This document shows positions 6,365 through 62,198 of a stretch of 64,000 bases of DNA, one piece after another. The stretch comes from Eledone cirrhosa (taxonomy: Eukaryota): assembly GCA_964016885.1 (NCBI GenBank), contig OZ024747.1, positions 21,266,001 to 21,330,000 of the forward strand. The letters run 5' to 3'. The translations under genes and the position numbers were made by a program. The notes under the pieces are model-generated. The model did not search any database, was not told the origin of the DNA, and saw nothing but the letters and a program-made list of their open reading frames with translations. Numbering within the stretch: position 1 is the first letter of the stretch; the number at the start of each line of letters is the position of its first letter.

Positions 6365-7122
6365 AATTATTGTGTAAAGTGCTCAGGTGCACTACAACTC
6401 GTCAATATAGTACATAGAATAATACACAAATGTCAGGGAAGTACATGTGTGTATGTGTCAGCTGTTCTGTTGGCGGATCTCGGGAAGCATGGAGGCCTTA
6501 AAGGATGCAGTGTCTCGACAGCTAACAACTGATGCAGGTAGTTTGTTCCATGCTTCAGCAACTCTGAGCGTGAAAAAATGTTTCCGAAAGTCATGGGAAC
6601 TGTGCTGTTTTCTTACTTTGTGGGCATGTCCACGTGTGTTAGACACATGGAAATCGAAAAGGTACTCAGGGTTGTTGTTGGCAACATGGTTAACAATTTT
6701 GTGGGTTGCCAGTTGCCAGGCGTCGGAGCTTCAATGAATCCATGCCCAGGGAAGCAAGGCGCTCAGAGTATGGTAGATGCCTGATGGAGGGTATTCGCTT
6801 GGTTGCACGTCTCTGAACAGTTTCCAGGCGGTCAATGTCCTGAGCAAGATAGGGGTTCCAGACTGGTGATGCAAATTCTAAGTGTGGTCGTACCATAGCT
6901 GTATACAGCCTTAAATAGATATCTGGAGAGCGGCTGACAAAGGTCTTGCTGAGTGATGCTAAGACACCCTCGGCCCTCTTGACAATTTTAGAGACGTGCC
7001 TCGTCCAACGCAAATCGCTGCTGACCGTAATGCCCAGGTCACGTTCACAGGAAGACTTCTTGATATTAGTGCTGTGGAGGGAGTATGTGGACGTTGGGTT
7101 TTTACTCCCAAAATGCAGTCTA
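6330..7122 (-). mobile_element. CR1-clade LINE 3' fragment with (TTA)n tail
   Basis: RT C-terminal peptides LYTAMVRPHLEFASPVWNPY..LETVQRRATKRIP and TRGH..FFTLRVAEAWNKLP; frameshifted; (ATA)n at 6330-6362. Confidence 0.9.
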
Positions 7123-8404
7123 AAAACCCTCGAAATATTAGGACAAGTAAATATCGTCCATTTTGCATAGACATTTTGTTGTAGCTTTCAAATACTGCAA
7201 TATATACACACACACACACACATATATGTGTGTGGGGGGGGGGGGATAGATAGAGAGAAAAAGAGAGAAAGAGAGTTAGATAGATACTTACACACATGTA
7301 TATGCACACACATATGTGTGTGTGTGTGTCAAAGGGAATAAAGGAAACAAACTAAATAGCACAGTACAAATATGCCAAGAATATTCCAGGTTCTGCCATC
7401 TATCAGCCACCCTCTTAAAACACCCTCTAATAATTGTAGCATTGAATTTCCACCTCATTTTCAAACAGTCTTCTTAATTCGCTTGCATATGGTGATAATT
7501 TTATCAATATTTAAAGTAGTTTGGATTGCCTTTCAAAGGTTAAAAGCTGGAGATATATCCATGAAAAATATTGTAACACCCCCTAACAGATTGCATTGAC
7601 TCAGTTGAGTGCTGCAACACCTCAGTTAAAATGGCACAGTTATATAGTTAATATCTACATTTCACACATAATACACAATACACAGACACTGGCTGGCCAT
7701 TATGGTAACTCAGCACTCCACTAATTTGACCAGATGTCCCTCTTTTTTTTTTATCAAACTTCATAGAAGAGCATTGTATAGGAAATGTCATATCTTTGAA
7801 ATTTCTTCCACATGATAACATAGATATTTCATATCAAATATAATTGATATCATATTTTTTCATATCACTTCTTATATCATTAAAAAATAACAAAAGTGTT
7901 TTCCTTTGATATAATCACATTTTGTTTTTATCATTCTTATCACTTCAAACAGATACAATTTTTTTATCTTCTTTATCTAGTTGACATCGTGTGTTTATAT
8001 ATATATTATCTAATGTCAAGTTTCTCATATCTAATTTAATTGATATCACATTTTATCTTTTTCTTTTTCTCTTCCAAAACAGACAAACTACAACAAATTC
8101 AGAAAAAAACAAAAGGATTATTTTGATTCAGTAAACAGATTATAAATATTTTCACAAAGAGGATTTAAAAAATACTACCTTATTTCTTCACAAATTTATA
8201 CCACTGGGTAAGTTACTAAATTTATTTTCATACTCAGTCAGTCATTTTTTATGTATTTTTAACTCTTGATACAATCCCTCTGAAACTGTCCTAGTTTTAT
8301 GATATAAAACTGGCCGTTTGAAAATGTTTTAACTTAATATTAAAACTTTCTGTCATAATTTTAGGTATGAAATTTTTAAAGTAATGTTCCAAGTATCTGC
8401 TTAA

Positions 8405-18804: not shown

Positions 18805-18835
<31 letters not shown>

Positions 18836-19004
18836 ATATATATATATTGGAATAAATGCTCTGAAATAGCGATATATATGTGAATATAGACATAGAATAT
18901 TCGAAAATATTCTGTATGTTTATAATAAACATTTTGAAGACCTAATCGCTATAGAATAGAATACGTCACGTATTACAATTAGATTCTCGATAAAAGCAAG
19001 GGAA

Positions 19005-19047
19005 GTAATCTACGCGTTTCATTCTCGTAAGAAATCATCAGGACTAC
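19005..19047 (-). ncRNA. Minimal type-I hammerhead ribozyme, 310-bp family
   Basis: Reverse complement reads GUAGUC-CUGAUGA-UUUCU-UACG-AGAAU-GAAAC-GC-GUA-GAUUAC. Confidence 0.9.
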
Positions 19048-19314
19048 ATATCCAGTGCTTTTATCGAGAATGACACAGCTAGAGACTTATAGAATACTTA
19101 GCTGTGTACAGGAACTGATTTGAAAGAGCGGTTGCCGGTCCGGCAGAAATTAGAAATTGGAATAAATGCTCTGAAATAGCGATATATATGTGAATATAGA
19201 CATAGAATATTCGAAAATATTCTGTATGTTTATAATAAACATTTTGAAGACCTAATCGCTATAGAATAGAATACGTCACGTATTACAATTAGATTCTCGA
19301 TAAAAGCAAGGGAA

Positions 19315-19357
19315 GTAATCTACGCGTTTCATTCTCGTAAGAAATCATCAGGACTAC
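19315..19357 (-). ncRNA. Minimal type-I hammerhead ribozyme, 310-bp family
   Basis: Identical copy, +310. Confidence 0.9.
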
Positions 19358-19624
19358 ATATCCAGTGCTTTTATCGAGAATGACACAGCTAGAGACTTAT
19401 AGAATACTTAGCTGTGTACAGGAACTGATTTGAAAGAGCGGTTGCCGGTCCGGCAGAAATTAGAAATTGGAATAAATGCTCTGAAATAGCGATATATATG
19501 TGAATATAGACATAGAATATTCGAAAATATTCTGTATGTTTATAATAAACATTTTGAAGACCTAATCGCTATAGAATAGAATACGTCACGTATTACAATT
19601 AGATTCTCGATAAAAGCAAGGGAA

Positions 19625-19667
19625 GTAATCTACGCGTTTCATTCTCGTAAGAAATCATCAGGACTAC
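19625..19667 (-). ncRNA. Minimal type-I hammerhead ribozyme, 310-bp family
   Basis: Identical copy, +620. Confidence 0.9.
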
Positions 19668-20149
19668 ATATCCAGTGCTTTTATCGAGAATGACACAGCT
19701 AGAGACTTATAGAATACTTAGCTGTGTACAGGAACTGATTTGAAAGAGCGGTTGCCGGTCCGGCAGAAATTAGAAATTGGAATAAATGCTCTGAAATAGC
19801 GATATATATGTGAATATAGACATAGAATATTCGAAAATATTCTGTATGTTTATAATAAACATTTTGAAGACCTAATCGCTATAGAATAGAATTTTATCGA
19901 GAATCTAATTGTAATACGTGACGTATTCTATTCTATAGCGATTAGGTCTTCAAAATGTTTATTATAAACATACAGAATATTTTCGAATATTCTATGTCTA
20001 TATTCACATATATATCGCTATTTCAGAGCATTTATTCCAATTTCTAATTTCTGCCGGACCGGCAACCGCTCTTTCAAATCAGTTCCTGTACACAGCTAAG
20101 TATTCTATAAGTCTCTAGCTGTGTCATTCTCGATAAAAGCACTGGATAT

Positions 20150-20192
20150 GTAGTCCTGATGATTTCTTACGAGAATGAAACGCGTAGATTAC
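20150..20192 (+). ncRNA. Minimal type-I hammerhead ribozyme, 310-bp family
   Basis: GTAGTC CTGATGA TTTCTTACGAGAAT GAAAC GC GTA GATTAC; stem I GUAGUC/GAUUAC; predicted cleavage after 20186. Confidence 0.9.
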
Positions 20193-20459
20193 TTCCCTTG
20201 CTTTTATCGAGAATCTAATTGTAATACGTGACGTATTCTATTCTATAGCGATTAGGTCTTCAAAATGTTTATTATAAACATACAGAATATTTTCGAATAT
20301 TCTATGTCTATATTCACATATATATCGCTATTTCAGAGCATTTATTCCAATTTCTAATTTCTGCCGGACCGGCAACCGCTCTTTCAAATCAGTTCCTGTA
20401 CACAGCTAAGTATTCTATAAGTCTCTAGCTGTGTCATTCTCGATAAAAGCACTGGATAT

Positions 20460-20502
20460 GTAGTCCTGATGATTTCTTACGAGAATGAAACGCGTAGATT
20501 AC
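20460..20502 (+). ncRNA. Minimal type-I hammerhead ribozyme, 310-bp family
   Basis: Identical copy, +310; predicted cleavage after 20496. Confidence 0.9.
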
Positions 20503-22054
20503 TTCCCTTGCTTTTATCGAGAATCTAATTGTAATACGTGACGTATTCTATTCTATAGCGATTAGGTCTTCAAAATGTTTATTATAAACATACAGAATAT
20601 TTTCGAATATTCTATGTCTATATTCATATATATATATATATATATACACACATACATACACATATACACACACACACATATATATATACATATACATATA
20701 TATATATATATATACATATACACACATAACTCATTCAACTCATTCTTCCTCACATCACCCTGTTAAATCCTACTACACTAATCATAGCTTCTTAATTTCT
20801 CTTCTCCTCATCACACTTCATATCTTCTCTTCCTGGCAGTTTATTTTATCAACCGTAGAAGAATGGAAGGCAAAGTAGACCTCAGCTGGATTCGAACTCA
20901 GAACATTGACAGTTGTAACTATATACCACAAAATATTTTGTCTAATGCACTAATGATTCTGCCAATCTACAACGCTACAAACCTCAAAGGCAAATCTGGC
21001 CTTAGTGAAATTTTAACTCCAAGCACAGTAGATCAGAACAAATACCTAGGCATTTTATTTGACAATTCAACAACTGCCAATCCAACCACTCTGCCAATCC
21101 AATCTTTTCTAAATAACTTTAACTCAATCCTAAGGAAATAGGGAATCTCAGAGGAAAATCTTGGACAAAATCAAAATTTGTATAGCTCCAAGGAAAATTC
21201 AACCAAAGAAATATGCTTAAAATAGCATCCATTTTTAACATGAAGGTTTTCACAATTACATTATATTATCCTATATATATTTTACACAGTGCTACCATCA
21301 GTTTCTGTTTGCAAATAACTTGTGCCAAGCAGATCTGACATCACTCACACATTACGTAACAATAAGAAGGATTTATTAGAAAGCTGGACATAGATTTATT
21401 GCAGCAAGATATTGTTGTTGCCCTGAAGGTATTGTGTCAAGTCATTGTATCATCATCATCTTCATCATCTACATCACCATCATTATCATCTGCATCATAA
21501 TCATCATCATTAATTCATCTTCATCATCCTTATAATTATCATAATCATCGTCATCGTCCTCATAATGATTTTTTTTTTAATACAAGACCCTAGATTTGTA
21601 AGGAAGGTTTTATAGGGAATTGAATAAATAAATCCCAGAAGATTCCTGGCATTTATATTATCAACTCAGAAAAGATGGCAGATGAAGAAAAAATGAACCC
21701 CAGTGGGATTTGAACTCAAAATATAGGGAGATAAAACTAAATTCTGAAAATCCTTTAATCTACCACTCTACTCTTTCTGTCACTCCATTGCTTGAATTAA
21801 CCCTAGATATGGTGATGTGATTATGAAGTTCCTTTCATAATCACATGGCTCTAACTTCGATCCCACAATGCAACACATTTGTTTCTGTCTTTGATTTCAC
21901 CTTTAAATATTCTATATTAGATCCTACATTAGTGAATGACATTTGTGCCAGTGTATTAATGTCAAAGTGTATGTGTTGTCCTTTTTATTGCTGTTATGGA
22001 AATTCATTTTCAGATATAAGGTGGCAGCTATTATTATCTATATCATCTTGGAAG

Positions 22055-22559: not shown

Positions 22560-22959
22560 ATCAATATATGTATATATATATATTTCTTCAAACAATGTTT
22601 TTTCTAACTTCATTTCAATATTTTTATGAAGTATCACAGTAGTTTATTTTGATTCAGCAGGTGTCATGCTACTTCTCTATTCTTCATATCTCTTATAATA
22701 CCTGGCTTTAACATCTCAGGTCTTTTCATAAATATAAGCAAGATATATCAAAAAAAGAAAAAGATGTTACATTTATTCCAGGTATTCAGATGGATATCTC
22801 AATGTTATTAAGTCCATTGATTGCAAAACAATCCAAAAGAAAAAGAATGTTTTCATCCCATAAAACTTGGTAAAACCCCAATCTCATCATAGATGCCATA
22901 AGAAGCTTTTATACACATCAATAACTAATATAATGGTCATGATGATGATGATAATGATG

Positions 22960-22993
<34 letters not shown>

Positions 22994-22996
<3 letters not shown>

Positions 22997-23500
22997 AGAA
23001 TACTGACAGCACGATCAAGGCCAATAGGCCTGATATAATTGTGAAGGGCCATAAAAAGAAAACATGCTTCTTAATTGACAAGAGCATTTCATTAGATTGT
23101 AACATCTCCTGTAAAGAGTTACAAAAGCTCAGTACATATAAATATCTGATAAATGAAATTAAGAGAATGTGGCATCTTAAAGCTGGTACAATACCAGTGA
23201 TGGTCGGTACACTTGAAATGATAAAAAAAGCAATTGAAAAATATTTGGACAAGATACCTGGAAAGCCATCTCTGCAAAAGATACAGAAAATAGTGCTGAC
23301 TGGCACTGTCCATGTCCTGAAAAGGACATTATCAATTTAATTACCTTACTATTACATTTACTATTGCTTATCCTCTGATGGTATCATCTGTATGCCAATT
23401 GATTTTTAAACATGTGTATTTCCAAATTTTGCCTCAGGTGTCAGGTTGACACTCAGCAATATATGGGAGAGAAGCAGAATTCAAAGGAAGTTTCAAATAA
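22994..23500 (+). mobile_element. R4/Dong-like LINE 3' fragment (restriction-like endonuclease domain)
   Basis: IKANRPDIIV..CFLID..K..K.....Y..L..EIKRMW..IPVMVG..IQKIVL.GT..VLKR fits the PD-(D/E)XK C-terminus; bounded by (TAA)n. Confidence 0.75.
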
Positions 23501-25817: not shown

Positions 25818-26745
25818 TCATCATCATCATCATCATCATCATCATTTAACGTCCATATTCCACGCTTGCATGGGTTTGGACGGGAGTTTTCCCACTTGAG
25901 GCAAGAGTGGTTGTCTTGCTCACATAGGACTGTCTGGCAGGTTTTCTACGGCTGGATGCCCTTCCTAACACCAACCACATTTACAGTGTGGGACTGGGAG
26001 ATTTTTACCGTGTTACCTACACGGCCACATTACAGCGTGGACTGTGTGTTTTTTTGTCATGACACCTACACGACCTCATTTGTTTCGGCCTGGATGTTGT
26101 GGTACCAACATAACTTTACATTGAAAGGGGCGGTGTGGATGGGGTGGGGGTAGTGGGACGGGGGTGTATTTTGTTAGAGGTGCCTACTGACTGTAGTAGG
26201 TTTTACTTTGTATTTAGGTAAGGCGGGTCTTCTCTATTACTGTGTACTGCCAAAGATCTCGGTCCAGTGACATTGTCTTGGAGAGGTGTAAGTGTGTGAG
26301 GTCGGAATTTATCAAGTCGTCCCAGGTTTTTCTGGGTCTGCCTACTCCGTGGCTACCGTCCATTTTTATTGCCCTGCACTTTTTTATACAGCTGTCGTCT
26401 TTCATGCGCATCACGTGACCATACCAACGTAGCCTTCTCTCAAGTAAACAACATCTGATCCCTCTTATTTCTAATTTTTCCCTTAGTTCGTTAATGCTTT
26501 GCCGTTCACGTATATTACTATTACACATCCAGCGGAGCATGCAAGCTTCGTTCCTCTCTAGTCTGCATATATCCTCTGCACACAATGCCCAGGTCTCACT
26601 CCCATGCAACATTGCTGTTCGTATGCAGGCATCATACAGCCTGCCTTTTATTTTAAGGGAGAACCCTTTAGCGGCTAATAGTGGTATAAGCTCTCTGAAC
26701 TTTTTCCATCCAGTTCTGATTCTAGCTACTGTACTTTCACTCCTT
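25818..26745 (-). mobile_element. RTE-clade LINE 3' end: ORF C-terminus (26214-26745), 3' UTR and (ATG)n tail
   Basis: RIRTGWKKFREL..LYDACIRTAMLHGSETW..RRLRWYGHVMRM..GRPRKTW. Confidence 0.9.
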
Positions 26746-27014
26746 GTGTAGCCAATTCCAAATGGAAAAAAGGTATAAAACAAATTCCTAATGAAATAAG
26801 AAAATCTAAAGACATGTAGTGAGAATGTCAAAGGAATGAACAACTGGACAGATTTTACAGGGCAAAGCCAACTGCCAGAAGATCAAGGGGTAAGCTAGGA
26901 GCAAGATGGTTGGGTCATTTGGAGACAGTTGCTTCTGATAAAAATCTCTGGCACTCTGATCCAACAACCCTTTCTAAAAGTAGTAGTAGTAGTAGTAGTA
27001 GTAGTAGCAGTAGT

Positions 27015-45696: not shown

Positions 45697-48071
45697 CACT
45701 GCAACAACAACTGCAACAACAACTACAATAACAACTGCAATAACTACTACAATAACAACTACAATAACAACTGCAATAACAACTATAATAACAACTACAA
45801 TAACAACTGCAATAACAACTGCAATAACAACTATAATAACAACTGCAATAACAACTACAATAACAACTGCAATAACAACTACAATAACAACTGCAATAAC
45901 AACTATAATAACAACTGCAATAACAACTACAATAACAACTGCAATAACAACTGCAATAACAACTGCAATAACAACTGCAATAACAACTGCAATAACAACT
46001 ACAATAACAACTGCAATAACAACCGCAATAACAACTGCAATAACAACCGCAATAACAACTGCAATAACAACCGCAATAACAACTGCAATAACAACTGCAA
46101 TAACAACCGCAATAACAACTGCAATAACCACTGCAATAACAACTACAATAACAACTGCAATAACAACTGCAATAACAACTACAGTAACAACTGCAATAAC
46201 AACTGCAATAACAACTGCAATAACAACTACAATAACAACTGCAATAATAACTGCAATAACAACTGCAATAACAACTGCAATAACCACTGCAATAACAACT
46301 GCAATAACTACTACAATAACAACTGCAATAACAACTATAATAACAACTACAATAACAACTGCAATAACAACTACAATAACAACTGCAATAACAACTACAA
46401 TAACAACTGCAATAATAACTGCAATAACAACTGCAATAAGAACTGCAATAAGAACTGCAATAACAACTGCAATAACTACTACAATAACAACTGCAATAAC
46501 AACTATAATAACAACTACAATAACAACTGCAATAACAACTGCAATAACAACTGCAATAACAACTACAATAACAACTGCAATAAGAACTGCAATAACAACT
46601 GCAATAACTACTACAATAACAACTGCAATAACAACTACAATAACAACTACAATAACAACTGCAATAACTACTACAATAACAACTGCAATAACAACTACAA
46701 TAAAAACTGCAATAACAACTGCAATAACAACTACAATAACAACTGCAATAACTACTACAATAACAACTGCAATAACAACTGCAATAACTACTACAATAAC
46801 AACTGCAATAACAACTGCAATAAGAACTGCAATAACAACTATAATAACAACTGCAATAACAACTACAATAACAACTGCAATAACAACTACAATAACAACT
46901 GCAATAACAACTACAATAACAACAGCAATAACAAATGCAATAACAACTGCAATAACAACTGCAATAAGAACTGCAATAACCACTGCAATAACAACTGCAA
47001 TAACTACTACAATAACAACTGCAATAACAACTGCAAAAACAACTGCAATAACAACTATAATAACCACTGCAATAACAACTACAATAACAACTGCAATAAC
47101 AACTGCAATAACAACTACAATAACAACTGCAATAACAACTACAATAAGAACTGCAATAAGAACTGCAATAACCACTGCAATAACAACTGCAATAACCACT
47201 GCAATAACAACTGCAATAACAACTGCAATAACAACTGCAATAACAACTGCAATAACAACTGCAATAACCACTACAATAAGAACTGCAATAACCACTGCAA
47301 TAACAACTGCAATAACAACTGCAATAAGAACTACAATAACAACTACAATAAGAACTGCAATAACCACTGCAATAAGAACTGCAATAACCACTGCAATAAC
47401 AACTGCAATAACAACTGCAATAAGAACTACAATAAGAACTGCAATAACCACTGCAATAACAACTGCAATAACAACTGCAATAACAACTGCAATAACAACT
47501 ACAATAACAACTGCAATAACCACTACAATAAGAACTGCAATAACCACTGCAATAAGAACTGCAATAAGAACTACAATAAGAACTGCAATAACCACTGCAA
47601 TAACCACTGCAATAACAACTGCAATAACAACTACAATAAGAACTACAATAAGAACTGCAATAACCACTGCAATAACAACTGCAATAACAACTGCAATAAG
47701 AACTACAATAAGAACTGCAATAACCACTGCAATAACAACTGCAATAACAACTGCAATAACCACTGCAATAACAACTGCAATAAGAACTGCAATAACAACT
47801 ACAATAACAACTGCAATAATAACTGCAATAACAACTGCAATAACAACTGCAATAACAACTGCAATAACCACTGCAATAACAACTGCAATAACAACTGCAA
47901 TAACCACTGCAATAACAACTGCAATAAGAACTGCAATAACCACTGCAATAACAACTGCAATAACAACTGCAATAACAACTACAATAACAACTACAATAAG
48001 AACTGCAATAACCACTGCAATAACAACTGCAATAACAACTGCAATAACAACTACAATAACAACTACAATAA
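45697..48071. repeat. 12-bp satellite (AATAACAACTGC)n, ~198 units
   Basis: Strict 12-bp phase over ~2.4 kb. Confidence 0.97.
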
Positions 48072-48298
48072 CATGAAGAGGAGAAACTAAAGAAAAACAC
48101 TCCACCTTGCAAAGCTTTAAAATAAATAAGAAAAACCAATAAAATAAAAGACAATAGAAAATTAGCCATTTCTTTTTCTTCGTCTTCTTAATCTGTTTGA
48201 TTTTACCCCTCCTTCTCCGCTTCCTCCTCCTCTCTCTTCATTTCTATTCAATCATTACTCTTGCCTCTTGCCTTACCTCATACTACCGCTCATGTCTA

Positions 48299-53351: not shown

Positions 53352-53717
53352 TACTCACACATAGACACTCTCACACACTTAGATACACGCATAGACAAAC
53401 ATGTACATATACATACACAAGAAGACAGAAGACAATACAAAACAACAATAACAATTACAATCGATTTTATAGATCGGTGGATATGTATGTGATTGTCTGT
53501 GTATGTGTGTGTGTGTGTGTATGTGTGTGTGTGTGTAGTTAAAACACCTGAGCTCAGCATTGGGCTTCGCAGATAATAAATACATTTATACTGCATTTTA
53601 AAATGAACATATTGAGTACTTCATTAATTATTGGTCATCCTTGTTATGACACTGTGAACATCCTATCTATATATCTGTGTGTTCATTATTCTATCTATAT
53701 CTATATATATCTATCTA

Positions 53718-53748
<31 letters not shown>

Positions 53749-53764
53749 ATTTATCTCACTCTCT

Positions 53765-56030
53765 CTTGCGGTCTACTGCAACTGGCAACAGAACGGGAGA
53801 ATTCCCTGTGCTGTGACCAAGGGCGTAGTCACGCTAGTGAGGAAGGACGAGAACAAGGGGGACGATATAAATAATTTCAGGCCCATAACTCTGCTAAATA
53901 CAGAGTTACAGATTTTGGCCAAGGTGCTAGCAAAGAGGTTGGCGCTTGTCGTGGGCAACCTGGTGGGAGATGCGCAGACATGTGCTATCCCGTCCAGGTC
54001 CATCAACGACAACCTCCACCTCATGCGATACAACATAGAGAGGGTTGGGAACGAACCCGGCTTTGGTGGGGCCCTGATCAACTTGGATCAATCTAAGGCG
54101 TTCGATAGGGTCGACCATGGTTACCTGGATGCGGTGCTAGTGGCGGCAGGCTTCGGACCCGTTTTCAGGGGCTGGATCAATGCCATGCACAGCAGCCGCA
54201 TCTGCTCTAGGGTCAAAGTGAACGGCTACCTCTCGGAGCCGTTCGAAATCGCGCGGTCCATCCGACAATGGTGCCCTCTCTCCTCCCTTCTGTATGTGAT
54301 GACTCTAGAGCCACTGCTGCGGAAGTTGGAGTTGTTGCAGGGCATCCCGTTGGAACCGGGATTGCGGAAAGTGGTGGCGGCCTACGCCGACGACATAACA
54401 GTAATGGTGTCGACGGCTTCGGAAATCGGGGCGATCGGCACCTTACTGGAGGAGTACGAAAGGTTTACAGGGGCTAAGCTGAACCGGGACAAGTCGATTG
54501 GTCTGCAACTCGGCACGTGGAGGGGCAGATCGATGCCCTCCGATGGCATCGTCGGGTGCTGGACGGAGGCCCCGGTGAAGTTGCTCGGGGTCTGGTTCGG
54601 ACCAGACCTCCAGGTGGAGAAGAACTGGGGTGAGGTAACGAACAGGGTGTTTGCACTGACCCAGAAGTGGGCCGAGTGCAAACTGTCCTTGAAAGGTCGG
54701 GCGGAGGTGGCGAACACTTATATAGCGTCCGTCATCTATTACCGCCTGACCGTTGTGCCTTGCCCAAGGGAAACGCTTGCCAAAATGGAGCGCGCACTCT
54801 TCCAATTCCTTTGGAAGAAGCGGGTTCCTATGGTGAGGAGATCCATCTGCTGTCAACACCCTTCGAAAGGAGGGCTGGGATGCTGTGGCTAATGATACGT
54901 AAACACGCATTAAGGCTACGGCACCTCCAGGTATTCCTCACCGGTCAACCGGTGTGGGCCCCATTTGTGAGGCGAGCCTTTCCCAGACTCGTCTCACTCA
55001 CCGAGCTGCAATCCTGGGTCAAGCAAAGACCGAGAAAACTGGGCGCCTGGCACACCGAGTGTGCCCAGGCGCTCACGGCTCTCTGGCAGGCGGACCCGGC
55101 TGTCAGTGGAGCATCCACCTCGTCATTCTATAGAGGGCTGGTGGTTAGCAGGTGTGACGATGCCCTCGGAGAAGCCCTAGGCATGGAGGAAGACAAACTG
55201 GCCAACCTGTTCGGTAGGACATTCAGCCCGGGACCCATGGATAACTTCCAGAGGTCCCTGGCCTGGCAGTGCTACTGAAGAGCTCTGCCCGTTCGAGAAA
55301 GGCTCTACAGACACGGGCGCCCGGGTAGGGACCCCTCGAAAAAGATCTGTCCCAGATGCGTGTGTGACGAGGAAACCATTGCACACGCATTGGTACACTG
55401 CTCGGGCATTGCCGATCTGTGGGGCTATATCGAACAACTGCTGTCAAGGGTGGGACCGATCCGGTTGACCACCGAGTCTATTGTAACGATCAAGCCGCCC
55501 CCCCTCTTCAAAAACGATGGAGAGGCGGTGTTTCTGTGCGTAATAGCCATGGCAAAAGAGGTTGTATGGTGGACGCGTCTGAAAGGACTGAGGTCAGACA
55601 CCTTTCTCTCTGGCCAACAACTGGTCCGTTTCTTCCGATATCATTTCGGAAGTATCAGGATGGAGAGAGAGGTGCTGCACCCTAGCCGTTTTTATGAAAG
55701 ATGGGTGAAAGGGGCGAGAATGGCCCGTATGAATGGGCCTTCACTCTACATCAGACTATAGGTGAGGAAGATGAAAGACCAAGGGAGCACCTCCTCTCTG
55801 TGCTCCTGAGGAGAAGGGTTGCACACTTTTTTTCGGGGGGGGGTGCAACCCCCAAGGCGCCTCCTCCCTATTGAGGATTTTGTTACAAAATTTATTTTGT
55901 TATATTTTATTTTATTTTTATACTTTTATATCTTGTTATTGCCTCCTCCATATTGAGGACGCCTTTGCATGTAAACTCCCCCTTTGTACTTGTCCCACTT
56001 TTGATGCCCTGGTGGCAAATAAAAAGAAAG
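53765..56030 (+). mobile_element. Tx1/L1-clade LINE, 5'-truncated ORF2 (RT plus C-terminal zinc knuckle), pseudogenised
   Basis: FRPITLLN, LDQSKAFDRVDH, SIRQWCPLS, YADD, CPRC..ETIAHALVHC; frameshift ~54885 and stop at 55278; GC-rich; AATAAA at 3' end; (CTAT)n flanks. Confidence 0.9.
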
Positions 56031-58735: not shown

Positions 58736-58810
<75 letters not shown>

Positions 58811-58815
<5 letters not shown>

Positions 58816-60265
58816 ATACTTTGGGAGGGTCATGTTGCCAATAAGAAACACACGCACCAGTTGCTTTCACTTCAATTTATTATAATAAATTTATAAATTT
58901 AGGAATTTATAAATTTCCGGTTGGTTGGTTGGTTCCACAACCAGATAGTTGTTTATATATTGTCAAAGTTCTTTCGTCACACATTCTGTGACATCTTCAG
59001 TGACTGGGATTCTTTTCTTTGTTTTTGTGCCTCTCCTTTGTTCTGTCCTACACCATTTTGTTTCTGTGTGTGTGTTGTGTGCTCAGTCTGCGCATGCGCC
59101 ACATCCGGGTGTCTGTGTGTGTTTATATTCGTTTATTTATTTGTTTATTTACATGTTACAGGTTGGTTGTTTGTTCTATGTGTGTGTGTGTTTTCATTTT
59201 GTCCTTAATTGTAAGTTGTGATGTTGCTGTTCCACTCATATTTTCTATTTAATTTTGGTTGTAATTCTTTTATGTTTATTGCCTCTGTGATTTGTCTAAA
59301 CATTGCGTCTTTTCTGTGTGTAGATTCTATTTTTATTTCTATGTTCTCTAATTTACCCTTATGTTCTATTTTAGCATGTTGGTAGAGTACAGATGATTCT
59401 TTACTATCTTGAAGGTCTCGCCAGTGTTCATTTATCCATTCCCCTACACTACGAGCTGTCTCACCTATGTACACTATATTTTTGTCTCTACATTGTCCTT
59501 CAGTACATCTTATGCTATATACTACATTTCTAGTTTTACAGTTAATATGGGGGCTTAATTTACAGGTTATACATTTCTTATCTATACAGGGGGGTCTTTG
59601 AAAAGAGTATGTCTTGCTAAAAAGTGTTTTTACCGAGGTACCTGGTCTTTCTACTATCTTAATATTGAGTTTATGTTTGTCTAGGGCCCTTCTAAATTTG
59701 TAAGCTAATTCACCTCTAGGGGTGGTATCGATGAACATTACACTCTGGTATTTATTGCTATCATACCATGAGTTTATTCTATTAGCCTTGTTCCTAGTTC
59801 TTTTTATTCTATTCCAAAATTTGCTCCTATACAAGGGGCAGGTCCCATTTATGTCATTATTTACCATTTTTTCCCATTTGGTTCTGGCTCCTCTATACAC
59901 TCTGATTGTATCTCTCTGATTGTAACCAGATAACTGCATACGGTGGATGAAGTGTTGTATGTGTCTCTCTAGTTCTTCGGGGTTGCACATGCGGGACACG
60001 CTTCTCATCACCCGTACCAAATCCGCAATCAGTATGTTGATTTTGGTATGGTCCGAAACAGCTGAGTTTCGGTGGATCAGATGTTTGGAAGTCATGGGTT
60101 TGGCATAATGGGAATGGAGGATTTGTTTTTTGTTATTAATGGTATCTAACCAGAGCTCTGTGATAGTACAGGTAATCGATGGTTGGGGTGTTTACCTGGG
60201 TAGTCTATAGTAACTCTAATACTCTGGTGGATGGAGTTAGCTATTTGCTGGATGCTTTCCAACAT
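58811..60265 (-). mobile_element. Penelope-like element 3' part: RT thumb, Cys linker, GIY-YIG endonuclease (ORF 59205-60095) and pLTR
   Basis: [59 protein letters not shown]; both ends in (TA)n. Confidence 0.9.
58962..59004 (-). ncRNA. Minimal hammerhead ribozyme in the Penelope pLTR
   Basis: GUCA-CUGAAGA-U-GUCAC-AGAAUGU-GUGAC-GAAAG-AA-CUU-UGAC; same strand as the ORF, ~200 nt past its stop. Confidence 0.8.
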
Positions 60266-60887: not shown

Positions 60888-62198
60888 GCTCTGTTCTTAG
60901 CCCTCTCCTGTTCATCATAGTCCTGCAGGCAATAACGGAGGAGTTTAAGACCGGATGCCCATGGGAACTCCTGTATGCTGATGACCTCGCACTAATAGCT
61001 GAATCTATGGTAGAACTAGAGAAGAAATTCCAAACTTGAAAGAAAGGGTCTCAAAGTCAACATGACAAAGACTAAGGTCCTTGTAAGTAGATGAGAAAAC
61101 AGAACCCAGATCCCCTCAGGGAAATGGCCTTGCTCAGTATGTAGGAAAGGTGTAGGTAGGAACTCCATTCTCTGCCCCAAATGCAAACAATGGGTACACA
61201 AGAGATGTAGCAGGATCTCAGGAAGCTTAATTAAGAATGTAGGCTTCACATGCAGCAGCTGTGCTGGGACAGCAAGCAGCAAACAGCCACAGGAAACAAG
61301 TACCACCAATCTCTGGGAGGGCTCTGTAGAAACAGAAGGCAGCTTCTGCTACCTAGGTGACCGAATTAGCATCAGAGGTGGGTGTTCAGAAAGTACAATA
61401 ACTAGGGTAAGAATAGGATGGAAGAAGTTCAGGGAACTACTGCCACTGCTAGCTGCAAAAGGCTTCTCCCTCAAAATGAAAGACAGACTGTATGATGCGT
61501 GTATCCGAACAGCAATGTTACATGGTAGTGAGACCTGGGTGCTGAAGGTGCAAGACTTACGTAGATTAGAAAGAAACGAAGCCTGCATGCTCCGATCGAT
61601 GTGTAATAGTAATATACGCGAACGACAAAGCATAAATGAATTGAGAGAGAGACTGAGCATAAAAGGAATCAAATGCTGTGTGCAGGAGAGGCGGTTGCGT
61701 TGGTATGGACATGTGATGCGTATGAAGGATGGCAGCTGCATATAAAGGTGCAGAGCACTAGAAGTCAATGGAAACCACGGAGTGGGATGAGGTGATAAAA
61801 GCCGACCTTACCCAATTACACCTCTCAAAGACGATGACACACAACCGTGACATCTGGCGTCACGCAGTAATACAGAGTACCCGACCTCCCATGGGTACGA
61901 GCTGAAGCATATAGACAATATGCCCCCACACCCTCCCACTGCAAAGTAGTCGTGGAGGTGCCACGGCAAAAAAGCACCCAGCCCACACTGTAAAGTGGAC
62001 GTGTAGGCGCCACAAAAAAGCACCCAGCACTCACTGTAAATGAGGTTGGTGTTAGGAAGGGCATCCAGCCAAAATCAGTTCCTGTATGAGCAAGGCATGG
62101 TCAGCTGACCAGACACTGTCCACAACAGGACAACCCGTCTAACCCATGCTAGCGTGGAAGAGCGGACGTAAAACGGTGATGATGATGATGATGATGAT
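60888..62198 (+). mobile_element. RTE-clade LINE, 5'-truncated, with 3' UTR and (ATG)n tail
   Basis: [20 protein letters not shown], Cys cluster CSVC..C..C..WVH..C, LYDACIRTAMLHGSETW, RRLRWYGHVMRM; in-frame stops. Confidence 0.9.

What the first reader, a model, noticed from the sequence alone, without database searches (positions are those of the whole stretch)
18847..20627. 310-bp hammerhead-ribozyme array with an inverted half: candidate retrozyme making circular RNA
Seen: apparently identical 310-bp non-coding units, each with a complete HHR core (CUGAUGA/GAAA, GUA site, 6-bp stem I, palindromic ACGCGU stem III). The HHR sits atop a 15-bp helix (TTCTCGATAAAAGCA/TGCTTTTATCGAGAA). The rest of the unit is also hairpin-rich (ACACAGCTA/TAGCTGTGT, GAATATT/AATATTC, TGCCGG/CCGGCA, TAGCGAT/ATCGCTA). 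Three HHRs lie on the minus strand and two on the plus. Known: Penelope-like elements carry minimal HHRs with a palindromic stem III that act as dimers; metazoan non-LTR retrozymes are tandem HHR repeats processed to monomeric and circular RNAs. Inferred: transcripts from either strand would release 310-nt monomers, and the multimer could come from rolling reverse transcription of a circle by a PLE enzyme. I cannot tell whether this family is already described.
Basis: partly seen in the sequence, partly recalled or inferred. Interest (0 to 1): 0.92.

Follow-up and report, generated by a model that had tools for sequence, protein, structure and literature searches.

The report
Ribozyme repeat inserted by Penelope machinery
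This is one of over a thousand genomic insertions of a small self-cutting RNA repeat (a retrozyme), and their back-to-back layout and fixed ends suggest that a Penelope-type reverse transcriptase copied a small RNA circle round and round from both sides of a DNA break, a route long proposed but not shown.

Summary
Observation confirmed: 18846-20626 is a mismatch-free head-to-head array of a 310-bp unit with five type I hammerhead cores. It is a young non-LTR retrozyme family: 18,942 hammerhead-pattern hits genome-wide against 37 control hits. The new part is the insertion signature. Both outer ends are RNA 3' ends fused to (TA)n, at two fixed sites 35 nt apart, one of each per array: 55 of 55 outward-facing end pairs on 184 Mb, none like-with-like. 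This is the Penelope 'tail', which marks two RT start sites. Arms reach 27 units, cross the cut site without scars, and share array-wide variants (118 fixed in both arms). The window's haplotype was absent from the 10 other loci read that carry its marker base. Best reading: twin-primed rolling-circle reverse transcription of a monomeric circle by a Penelope-like RT/endonuclease. A young autonomous family (PLE-B) shares a 22/3/3-nt structural module at the long end but no sequence similarity; the partnership is unproven. Cleavage and circular RNA were not tested. New variant of a known kind; interest 0.7.

The parts
18846..19892 (-). Left arm: 3.38 units, ribozyme-sense on minus; outer (RNA 3') end at unit position 165 ('long' end), inner end at position 49. 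Unit position 1 = first base after the cut (20187).
19892..20626 (+). Right arm: 2.37 units, ribozyme-sense on plus; inner end at position 16, outer end at position 130 ('short' end)
18846..18880 (-). 35-nt Penelope-type tail (unit 131-165), present at this end only
   Evidence: tail as described in PMC8557442 and PMC11167929
19892..19924 (.). Inversion centre: 1-nt overlap of the two inner ends; 19893-19924 is an unpaired spacer between the perfect inverted arms
20131..20213 (+). Hammerhead 1 (+) with its 15-bp supporting helix; core 20156-20180; predicted cut after 20186
20441..20523 (+). Hammerhead 2 (+); core 20466-20490; predicted cut after 20496
19017..19661 (-). Three hammerhead cores on minus (19661-19637, 19351-19327, 19041-19017)
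20187..20496 (+). Predicted 310-nt cut-to-cut monomer (34% GC), the proposed circle
20025..20071 (+). Proposed RT-start module (unit 149-195; repeated in every unit): 5-bp helix, 22 unpaired nt holding the long start site, 5-bp hairpin with 3-nt loop, 3 nt, closing helix
   Evidence: function inferred
19955..19993 (+). Two AT-rich hairpins (unit 79-117) just upstream of the short start site; compensatory changes in sister families
18805..18847 (.). Left (TA)n target flank
20627..20720 (.). Right (TA)n/(CA)n target flank

Best explanation
A non-autonomous non-LTR retrozyme that borrows a Penelope-like (PLE) RT/GIY-YIG protein. Steps: (1) an array is transcribed and paired hammerheads cut out 310-nt monomers (inferred from the motif and from known retrozymes); (2) a host ligase closes them into circles (inferred); (3) the PLE protein, probably a dimer, binds a structured module, cuts both strands of a (TA)n tract, and primes one strand at unit position 165 and the other at 130-139, where AUAUAUAU can pair with the target (end positions and the one-of-each rule are shown; enzymology inferred from PAc); (4) each RT runs round the circle up to 27 times (multimer arms shown; circle inferred); (5) the two cDNA ends are joined at arbitrary phases by 0-6 nt of microhomology or a short insert (shown), giving a head-to-head array with a 35-nt tail at one end. 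PLE mobilisation about 0.9, circular monomer template about 0.7, PLE-B as the partner about 0.5.
For: Family size 18,942 vs 37 control. Long-end/TA junctions 1,143, short-end 1,497, control 0. On C1 1-184.4 Mb, 72 long and 100 short ends gave 55 outward-facing pairs, all mixed, 0 long-long, 0 short-short (about 6e-18 if independent); 62 ends had no listed partner. Of 40 arrays chosen without regard to ends, 32 had two head-to-head arms, 30 long+short and 2 cut off by a contig or fetch end. 71 of 71 complete arrays have TA-rich flanks on both sides. 118 variant sites are fixed in all units of both arms; within-array minor-base rate 0.07%; 26 distinct majority units in 60 arrays; two random arrays share a haplotype 6% of the time. 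6 of 737 cut-site crossings deviate, 6.4 expected; 2 of 146 inner ends lie near the cut, 5.7 expected. The window's 203T occurs in 36 units genome-wide and fills all or nearly all units read in several arrays on different backgrounds; none of the 10 other loci read has the window's 203T/292T/295G. In 41 arrays picked by their ends, the only core position with a fixed change is the free N7. Two autonomous PLE families here make the same inverted pairs in (TA)n; PLE-B 8 of 8 one short, one tailed. The 22/3/3 module occurs once in the unit and once in 3.1 kb of PLE-B, at the long end in both; PLE-A has a 29/5/2 version. PAc cuts and extends both strands from two starts that bound the tail and is modelled as a dimer (PMC11167929).
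Against: No cleavage or RNA was observed. No Rfam hammerhead hit. The ribozyme looks weak, and 8 of 9 Xenopus dimers did not cleave in Li et al. 2026. PAc does not need its ribozyme in vitro and uses unprocessed RNA. L164 has the same ordered haplotype switch in both arms and L171 has one arm-specific fixed base, which one monomeric circle does not explain. No sequence similarity to the PLE-A 3' region beyond 10-mers, no PLE-A or PLE-B hit overlapping an array, and no chimeric arm. The module pattern was defined after seeing the match (0.25 chance hits per 3.1 kb in shuffles); tails differ (35 vs about 40 nt); only two young PLE families were examined. PLE-B copies read have CCGAAGA for the core, so the 164-nt cut-to-end distance rests on my placing of its cut.
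Confidence: 0.7

Rival explanations
1. Same PLE twin priming, but the template is a long uncleaved linear transcript of a parent array; the ribozyme is incidental or slow.
For: PAc uses unprocessed RNA; weak helix II/III; L164 mirrored haplotype switch.
Against: Of 96 sporadic variant bases with a mirror position in the other arm, 14 are mirrored: 12 in L164 and 2 an alignment artefact in L154. Rare variants fill whole arrays; no parent for the window haplotype among the 10 loci read (a haploid assembly may lack it). The catalytic core is conserved. Arms of 27 units need 8-kb uncut RNAs, and arrays could only shrink over generations.
Confidence: 0.14
2. A linear cut monomer is copied repeatedly by precise end-to-end template jumps.
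For: Explains the monomer bottleneck; one 10-nt deletion spans the cut site in L038; 1-nt insertions just after the cut are fixed in 311-nt subfamilies.
Against: 6 of 737 crossings deviate, equal to background; inner ends are not enriched at the cut.
Confidence: 0.07
3. A monomer or solo pLTR inserts, then grows locally by unequal crossover and is homogenised by gene conversion (satellite model discussed by Li et al. 2026).
For: Later DNA-level duplications do occur: 7-unit period in L141, about 4-unit period in the older L218.
Against: Both inverted arms are multimeric and carry one haplotype; partly spread variants are rare (5 multi-copy in one arm vs 118 fixed and 113 singletons); the youngest, mismatch-free arrays are already multimers.
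Confidence: 0.05
4. The inverted arm arises by self-priming/fold-back of the first cDNA (suggested for Penelope inversions in PMC3846280).
For: Two junctions use the 15-bp helix as 16-nt homology.
Against: A copied arm cannot exceed its template, yet the long-end arm is over one unit longer in 31 of 71 arrays and the short-end arm in 19 of 71; flanks are not palindromic.
Confidence: 0.03
5. Assembly or long-read fold-back artefact.
For: Palindromes are a known artefact type (own knowledge); no read spanning this locus was seen.
Against: Over 1,100 loci with asymmetric fixed ends; contigs of run X1 show many minus-to-plus joints at varied phases (X1 may be the source sample).
Confidence: 0.01

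Closest known systems
Metazoan non-LTR retrozymes (Cervera and de la Pena 2020, PMC7229834; coral, mussel, axolotl)
   Same: 150-450-bp non-coding tandem unit, one type I hammerhead each, GC below 50%, self-paired monomer; U-U at the base of helix II and 2-bp helix III as in axolotl HHR_Amex2; palindromic loop III as in HHR_Amex1.
   Different: Described as direct tandems; 'inverted', 'head-to-head' and 'microsatellite' occur 0 times in the main text. Here arrays are head-to-head with two fixed ends in (TA)n. RNA and cleavage shown there, not here.
Li, Clavereau and Pollet 2026 (bioRxiv 10.64898/2026.07.22.740005)
   Same: Concludes that animal retrozymes are non-autonomous partners of PLEs.
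   Different: Argues from co-occurrence and pLTR homology in vertebrates and discusses local growth by unequal crossover; 'tail' and 'head-to-head' 0 times. Here the link is the insertion scar and RNA structure, without detected pLTR sequence homology.
Endonuclease-bearing Penelope-like elements (Craig 2021 PMC8557442; Arkhipova 2013 PMC3846280; PAc, Frangieh 2024 PMC11167929)
   Same: Inverted 5'-truncated copy, 30-40-bp tail at one end, AT-rich/microsatellite targets, ribozyme upstream of the RT start sites.
   Different: No ORF; canonical rather than minimal ribozyme; both arms are long multimers; the one-short/one-long pairing is counted here as near-absolute, whereas the passages read call the tail optional or often at one end.
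Non-autonomous Chlamys elements such as MRC1 (PMC8557442 passage)
   Same: Non-autonomous PLE derivatives with multicopy insertions.
   Different: Those resemble their autonomous family at the 3' end, are head-to-tail, and the clade lacks canonical hammerheads.

Membership tests
Non-LTR retrozyme | Tandem 150-450-bp unit with a type I hammerhead in each copy | tested here: met
   310 bp, five cores; covariation; Rfam gave no hit
Non-LTR retrozyme | Non-coding | tested here: met
   No stop-to-stop frame of 120 aa or more overlaps 18846-20626
Non-LTR retrozyme | No LTR, PBS or PPT | not tested
   No unique internal region between repeats is seen; no tRNA-complementarity search was run
Non-LTR retrozyme | GC below 50% and highly self-paired monomer | tested here: met
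   34% GC; circular fold z -4.1; linear z -4.2
Non-LTR retrozyme | Dispersed, multicopy, mobile | tested here: met
Non-LTR retrozyme | Self-cleavage, better as dimer | not testable with these tools
   Only indirect: core invariant except N7 in 41 arrays; helix III self-duplex -9.5 kcal/mol
Non-LTR retrozyme | Expressed as linear and circular monomer RNA | not testable with these tools
   Only contigs of runs of unrecorded kind were available
Non-LTR retrozyme | Target-site duplication longer than 4 bp when present | tested here: inconclusive
   3 of 14 arrays with imperfect flanks show 11-21-nt repeats, inside repetitive tracts
Autonomous Penelope-like element | RT plus GIY-YIG ORF | tested here: not met
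   No ORF; no PLE-A/B hit overlaps any array
PLE-mobilised element | Inverted 5'-truncated copy joined head-to-head | tested here: met
   32 of 40 arrays not chosen by ends; 73 of 81 in all
PLE-mobilised element | 30-40-bp tail at one end | tested here: met
   35 nt (positions 131-165); 55 of 55 pairs
PLE-mobilised element | AT-rich / microsatellite target | tested here: met
   71 of 71 (41 of these were selected by patterns that include TA)
PLE-mobilised element | Sequence homology to the pLTR of an autonomous PLE | tested here: inconclusive
   None to PLE-A or PLE-B; structural match to PLE-B only; other families not inventoried

The most novel reading that the evidence does not exclude
A viroid-sized RNA circle with no sequence kinship to its helper mimics the folded RT-start module of a PLE, and a dimeric telomerase-like RT copies that one circle by rolling from two start sites onto both strands of one break. 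The same two-site twin priming would explain the tail and the inverted copy of Penelope elements in general, and the 47-nt module would be a portable signal for writing multimers of any small circular RNA into (TA)n.
Probability: 0.4. Interest if true: 0.87.

Novelty: new variant of a known kind. Interest (0 to 1): 0.7.

Why it matters
How animal retrozymes get back into genomes has been a proposal since 2020, and how Penelope elements make their tail and inverted copy is called an open problem in PMC8557442. This family records both in over a thousand young insertions, gives exact predicted start sites (165 and 130-139), a candidate helper with intact 900-aa frames and a short candidate recognition module, so the rolling-circle and twin-priming ideas become directly testable in the existing PAc-type assay. 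It also accounts for roughly 0.2% of this genome (about 19,000 units x 310 bp of 3.0 Gb; my arithmetic).

Tried and rejected
Rfam: no hammerhead at either threshold; the miRNA hits are just the long palindrome and TA tracts. Expression: no RNA holder listed; the four runs laid are contigs of unrecorded kind; X4-X6 each hold one 340-nt contig, a closed unit that tandem DNA or a circle would give alike, so this says nothing on expression. Partner hunt: PLE-A (window 58808-60261) has the same end rule but a roughly 60-nt tail, a 29/5/2 module and cut-to-end 200; searches with P0121 and part of P0185 returned PLE-B again plus one old relative; no retrozyme-PLE chimera in 110 loci plus the window. 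Named clade for PLE-A/B not assigned: homolog lists gave no clade names. TSD search inconclusive. My attempt to score the monomeric active fold used an invalid structure string and gave no usable energy. The first junction count (73 of 737) wrongly counted array-wide insertions and was redone. Earlier findings of this scan: nothing. Rows dropped before counts: L089 (not this family), pieces under 100 nt or 90% identity, the first copy in L146, inner fragments of L032 and L082; L032 and L100 left out of end and length statistics because truncated. The supplement of PMC7229834 could not be read and those of the 2026 preprint are closed; either might show inverted arrays or cephalopod examples.

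Full report
Observation. The window holds two mismatch-free arms of a 310-bp unit, 18846-19892 on minus and 19892-20626 on plus, between (TA)n tracts. I number the unit from 20187, the base after the predicted cut. The ribozyme is the canonical metazoan type I form described in PMC4209133 (part 1 of 4 read): 6-bp helix I, helix II with a U-U at its base, 2-bp helix III with a palindromic loop suited to dimer cleavage. Rfam does not detect it. The circular monomer folds at z -4.1, and on 11 units from this and an older sister family 22 of 65 named pairs change on both sides, including helices I and II (kinship and my choice of structure inflate this).

Family. The host is a 3.0-Gb animal genome; the only named close homologs of its PLE proteins are from Octopus species, so an octopus is likely, not established. 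A hammerhead pattern finds 18,942 sites against 37 for the reversed control (a few are other elements, such as L089). I analysed 81 arrays: the window, 20 from the best DNA hits, 19 from the hammerhead list and 41 chosen by their ends. 73 are two-armed and head-to-head, with ribozyme-sense 5' ends at the centre; among the 40 not chosen by ends the figure is 32. The other 8 are single-armed, stubbed or run into a gap.

Ends. Outer ends fall at two sites: position 165 (little homology to the target) and 130-139, where the unit's ATATATAT matches the target. Genome-wide there are 1,143 long and 1,497 short junctions with TA, control 0. Along the first 184.4 Mb of C1, 72 long and 100 short ends form 55 outward-facing pairs, every one long plus short; 62 ends had no listed partner. 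In the unselected set 30 of 30 complete arrays agree. The 35-nt offset matches the 30-40-bp PLE tail found at one end of insertions with an inverted copy (PMC8557442, passages; PMC3846280, passages). In the lizard element PAc the tail is the stretch between two internal RT start sites, both target strands are cut and extended, and the protein is modelled as a dimer (PMC11167929, parts 1-2 of 4). Two young autonomous PLE families in this genome behave alike: PLE-B (900 aa, RVT_1 plus GIY-YIG) gave one short and one tailed end in 8 of 8 inverted pairs fetched; most PLE-A inverted pairs show the same contrast, though in L077 and L078 both ends run on into tail sequence whose extent I did not follow. 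Inner ends are at scattered phases, joined mostly by 0-6 nt of overlap or short inserts. Either arm can be the longer (31 vs 19 of 71 by more than a unit), which excludes simple fold-back and points to two priming events.

Template. Arms reach 27 units from a fixed start. They cross the cut site 737 times with 6 deviations, 6.4 expected, and inner ends are not enriched there (2 of 146), so the template has no visible end at the cut. Arrays are internally uniform (0.07%) yet differ from each other: 118 variant sites are fixed across both arms, 113 are singletons; 478 of 556 full units equal their array's majority, with 26 distinct majorities in 60 arrays. Sporadic variants are not mirrored between arms except in L164. 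The window's marker base 203T occurs in 36 units genome-wide, fills whole arrays on several unrelated backgrounds, and its full haplotype is in none of the 10 other loci read. Each insertion therefore seems to pass through one monomer that is multiplied during insertion, which a circle explains most simply. In 41 arrays picked without regard to the ribozyme, fixed changes in the core touch only N7. Against: L164 shows the same ordered switch of haplotype in both arms, L171 one arm-specific base, L141 and L218 later periodic duplications; PAc needs no cleavage in vitro; 8 of 9 Xenopus dimers did not cleave; and no RNA evidence was obtainable here.

Helper. An older sister family (313-320 bp; 5,787 motif hits) keeps a 15-nt motif and ends 11 nt past it despite divergence elsewhere, as expected of a protein-defined start. 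Around the long end the unit folds into helix, 22 unpaired nt, 5-bp hairpin with 3-nt loop, 3 nt, helix. A mechanical search finds these dimensions once in the unit and once in 3.1 kb of PLE-B, at its long end; PLE-A has 29/5/2. Cut-to-long-end distance is 165 here, about 164 in PLE-B and 200 in PLE-A. PLE-B has about 1,200 long ends (604 on the forward strand) and arm-to-arm identity of 98.6-100%, so it is coeval. There is no sequence similarity and no chimera, the pattern was set after I saw the match, and other PLE families were not inventoried, so PLE-B is a candidate at about even odds.

Comparison and novelty. It meets every testable sequence criterion of a non-LTR retrozyme (PMC7229834, parts 2-4 of 6; supplement unreadable) and fails membership of autonomous PLEs. 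PLE mobilisation and rolling-circle copying were proposed there and in reviews (PMC7761336, PMC11722881, passages), and a 2026 preprint adds phylogenetic support (parts 1-3 of 5; supplements closed). Eight library searches listed no paper on a cephalopod retrozyme or on retrozyme arrays with inverted arms and a PLE tail; subscription journals and repeat databases are not covered. The terms twin priming and template jumping are recalled from LINE-1 and R2 work, not from a call.

Verdict. Real, young, high-copy retrozyme; new variant of a known kind. Shown: architecture, end rule, target, haplotype uniformity. Inferred: cleavage, circle, dimeric twin priming, identity of the helper. Interest 0.7.

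Noticed in passing
window 58808-60261 (-): 5'-truncated copy of PLE-A (C-terminal GIY-YIG-type region with an upstream Cys cluster), minimal hammerhead in its 3' repeat near 59000, short end in (TA)n; very abundant family (38,869 first-look candidates).
   Followed up: partly
L191-L198, L138: PLE-B: young Penelope-like family with intact 900-aa frames, head-to-head pairs, 3,127-bp tandem period in L191, about 40-nt tail; its ribozyme core reads CCGAAGA in the copies read.
   Followed up: partly
L093:4381-4694, L109, L134, L136: Older sister retrozyme families of 313-320 bp with longer helix III; several have a UUGAUAA core, the U3-A8 covariation noted in PMC4209133.
   Followed up: partly
L164 (C1:136719200-136726200): Both arms carry haplotype X in units 1-2 from the outer end and haplotype Y further in; not explained by one monomeric circle.
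   Followed up: partly
L141, L218: Variants recur with 7-unit and about 4-unit periods, suggesting later DNA-level duplication or multimeric circles.
   Followed up: partly
71 complete arrays: Lengths of the two arms are correlated (Spearman 0.37, p 0.0015), as if made together; sampling could contribute.
   Followed up: no
L082, L092, L158, L160, L166, L172: 311-nt subfamilies carry a fixed 1-nt insertion (C or T) two to four bases after the cut site.
   Followed up: no
L089:4870-4920 (C1:18735881): A solitary canonical hammerhead with the same ACGCGU helix III but no similarity to the unit; may mark a third PLE or retrozyme family.
   Followed up: no
L211: Decayed older relative of PLE-B with a canonical CUGAUGA ribozyme core.
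   Followed up: partly
runs X4-X6: Runs labelled as three other organisms each hold a single closed 340-nt contig of the unit; contamination, diet or RNA circle cannot be told apart.
   Followed up: no
window 19191-20626: A transcript through the centre would fold into a perfect hairpin of about 700 bp, a likely small-RNA substrate (inference).
   Followed up: no
window 53552-55761 (+); 6690-7187, 22864-23340, 26214-26882, 61095-61745: LINE-type RT fragment (RVT_1) and other retroelement-like remnants without Pfam hits; also a 12-bp minisatellite of 198 copies at 45698-48073.
   Followed up: no
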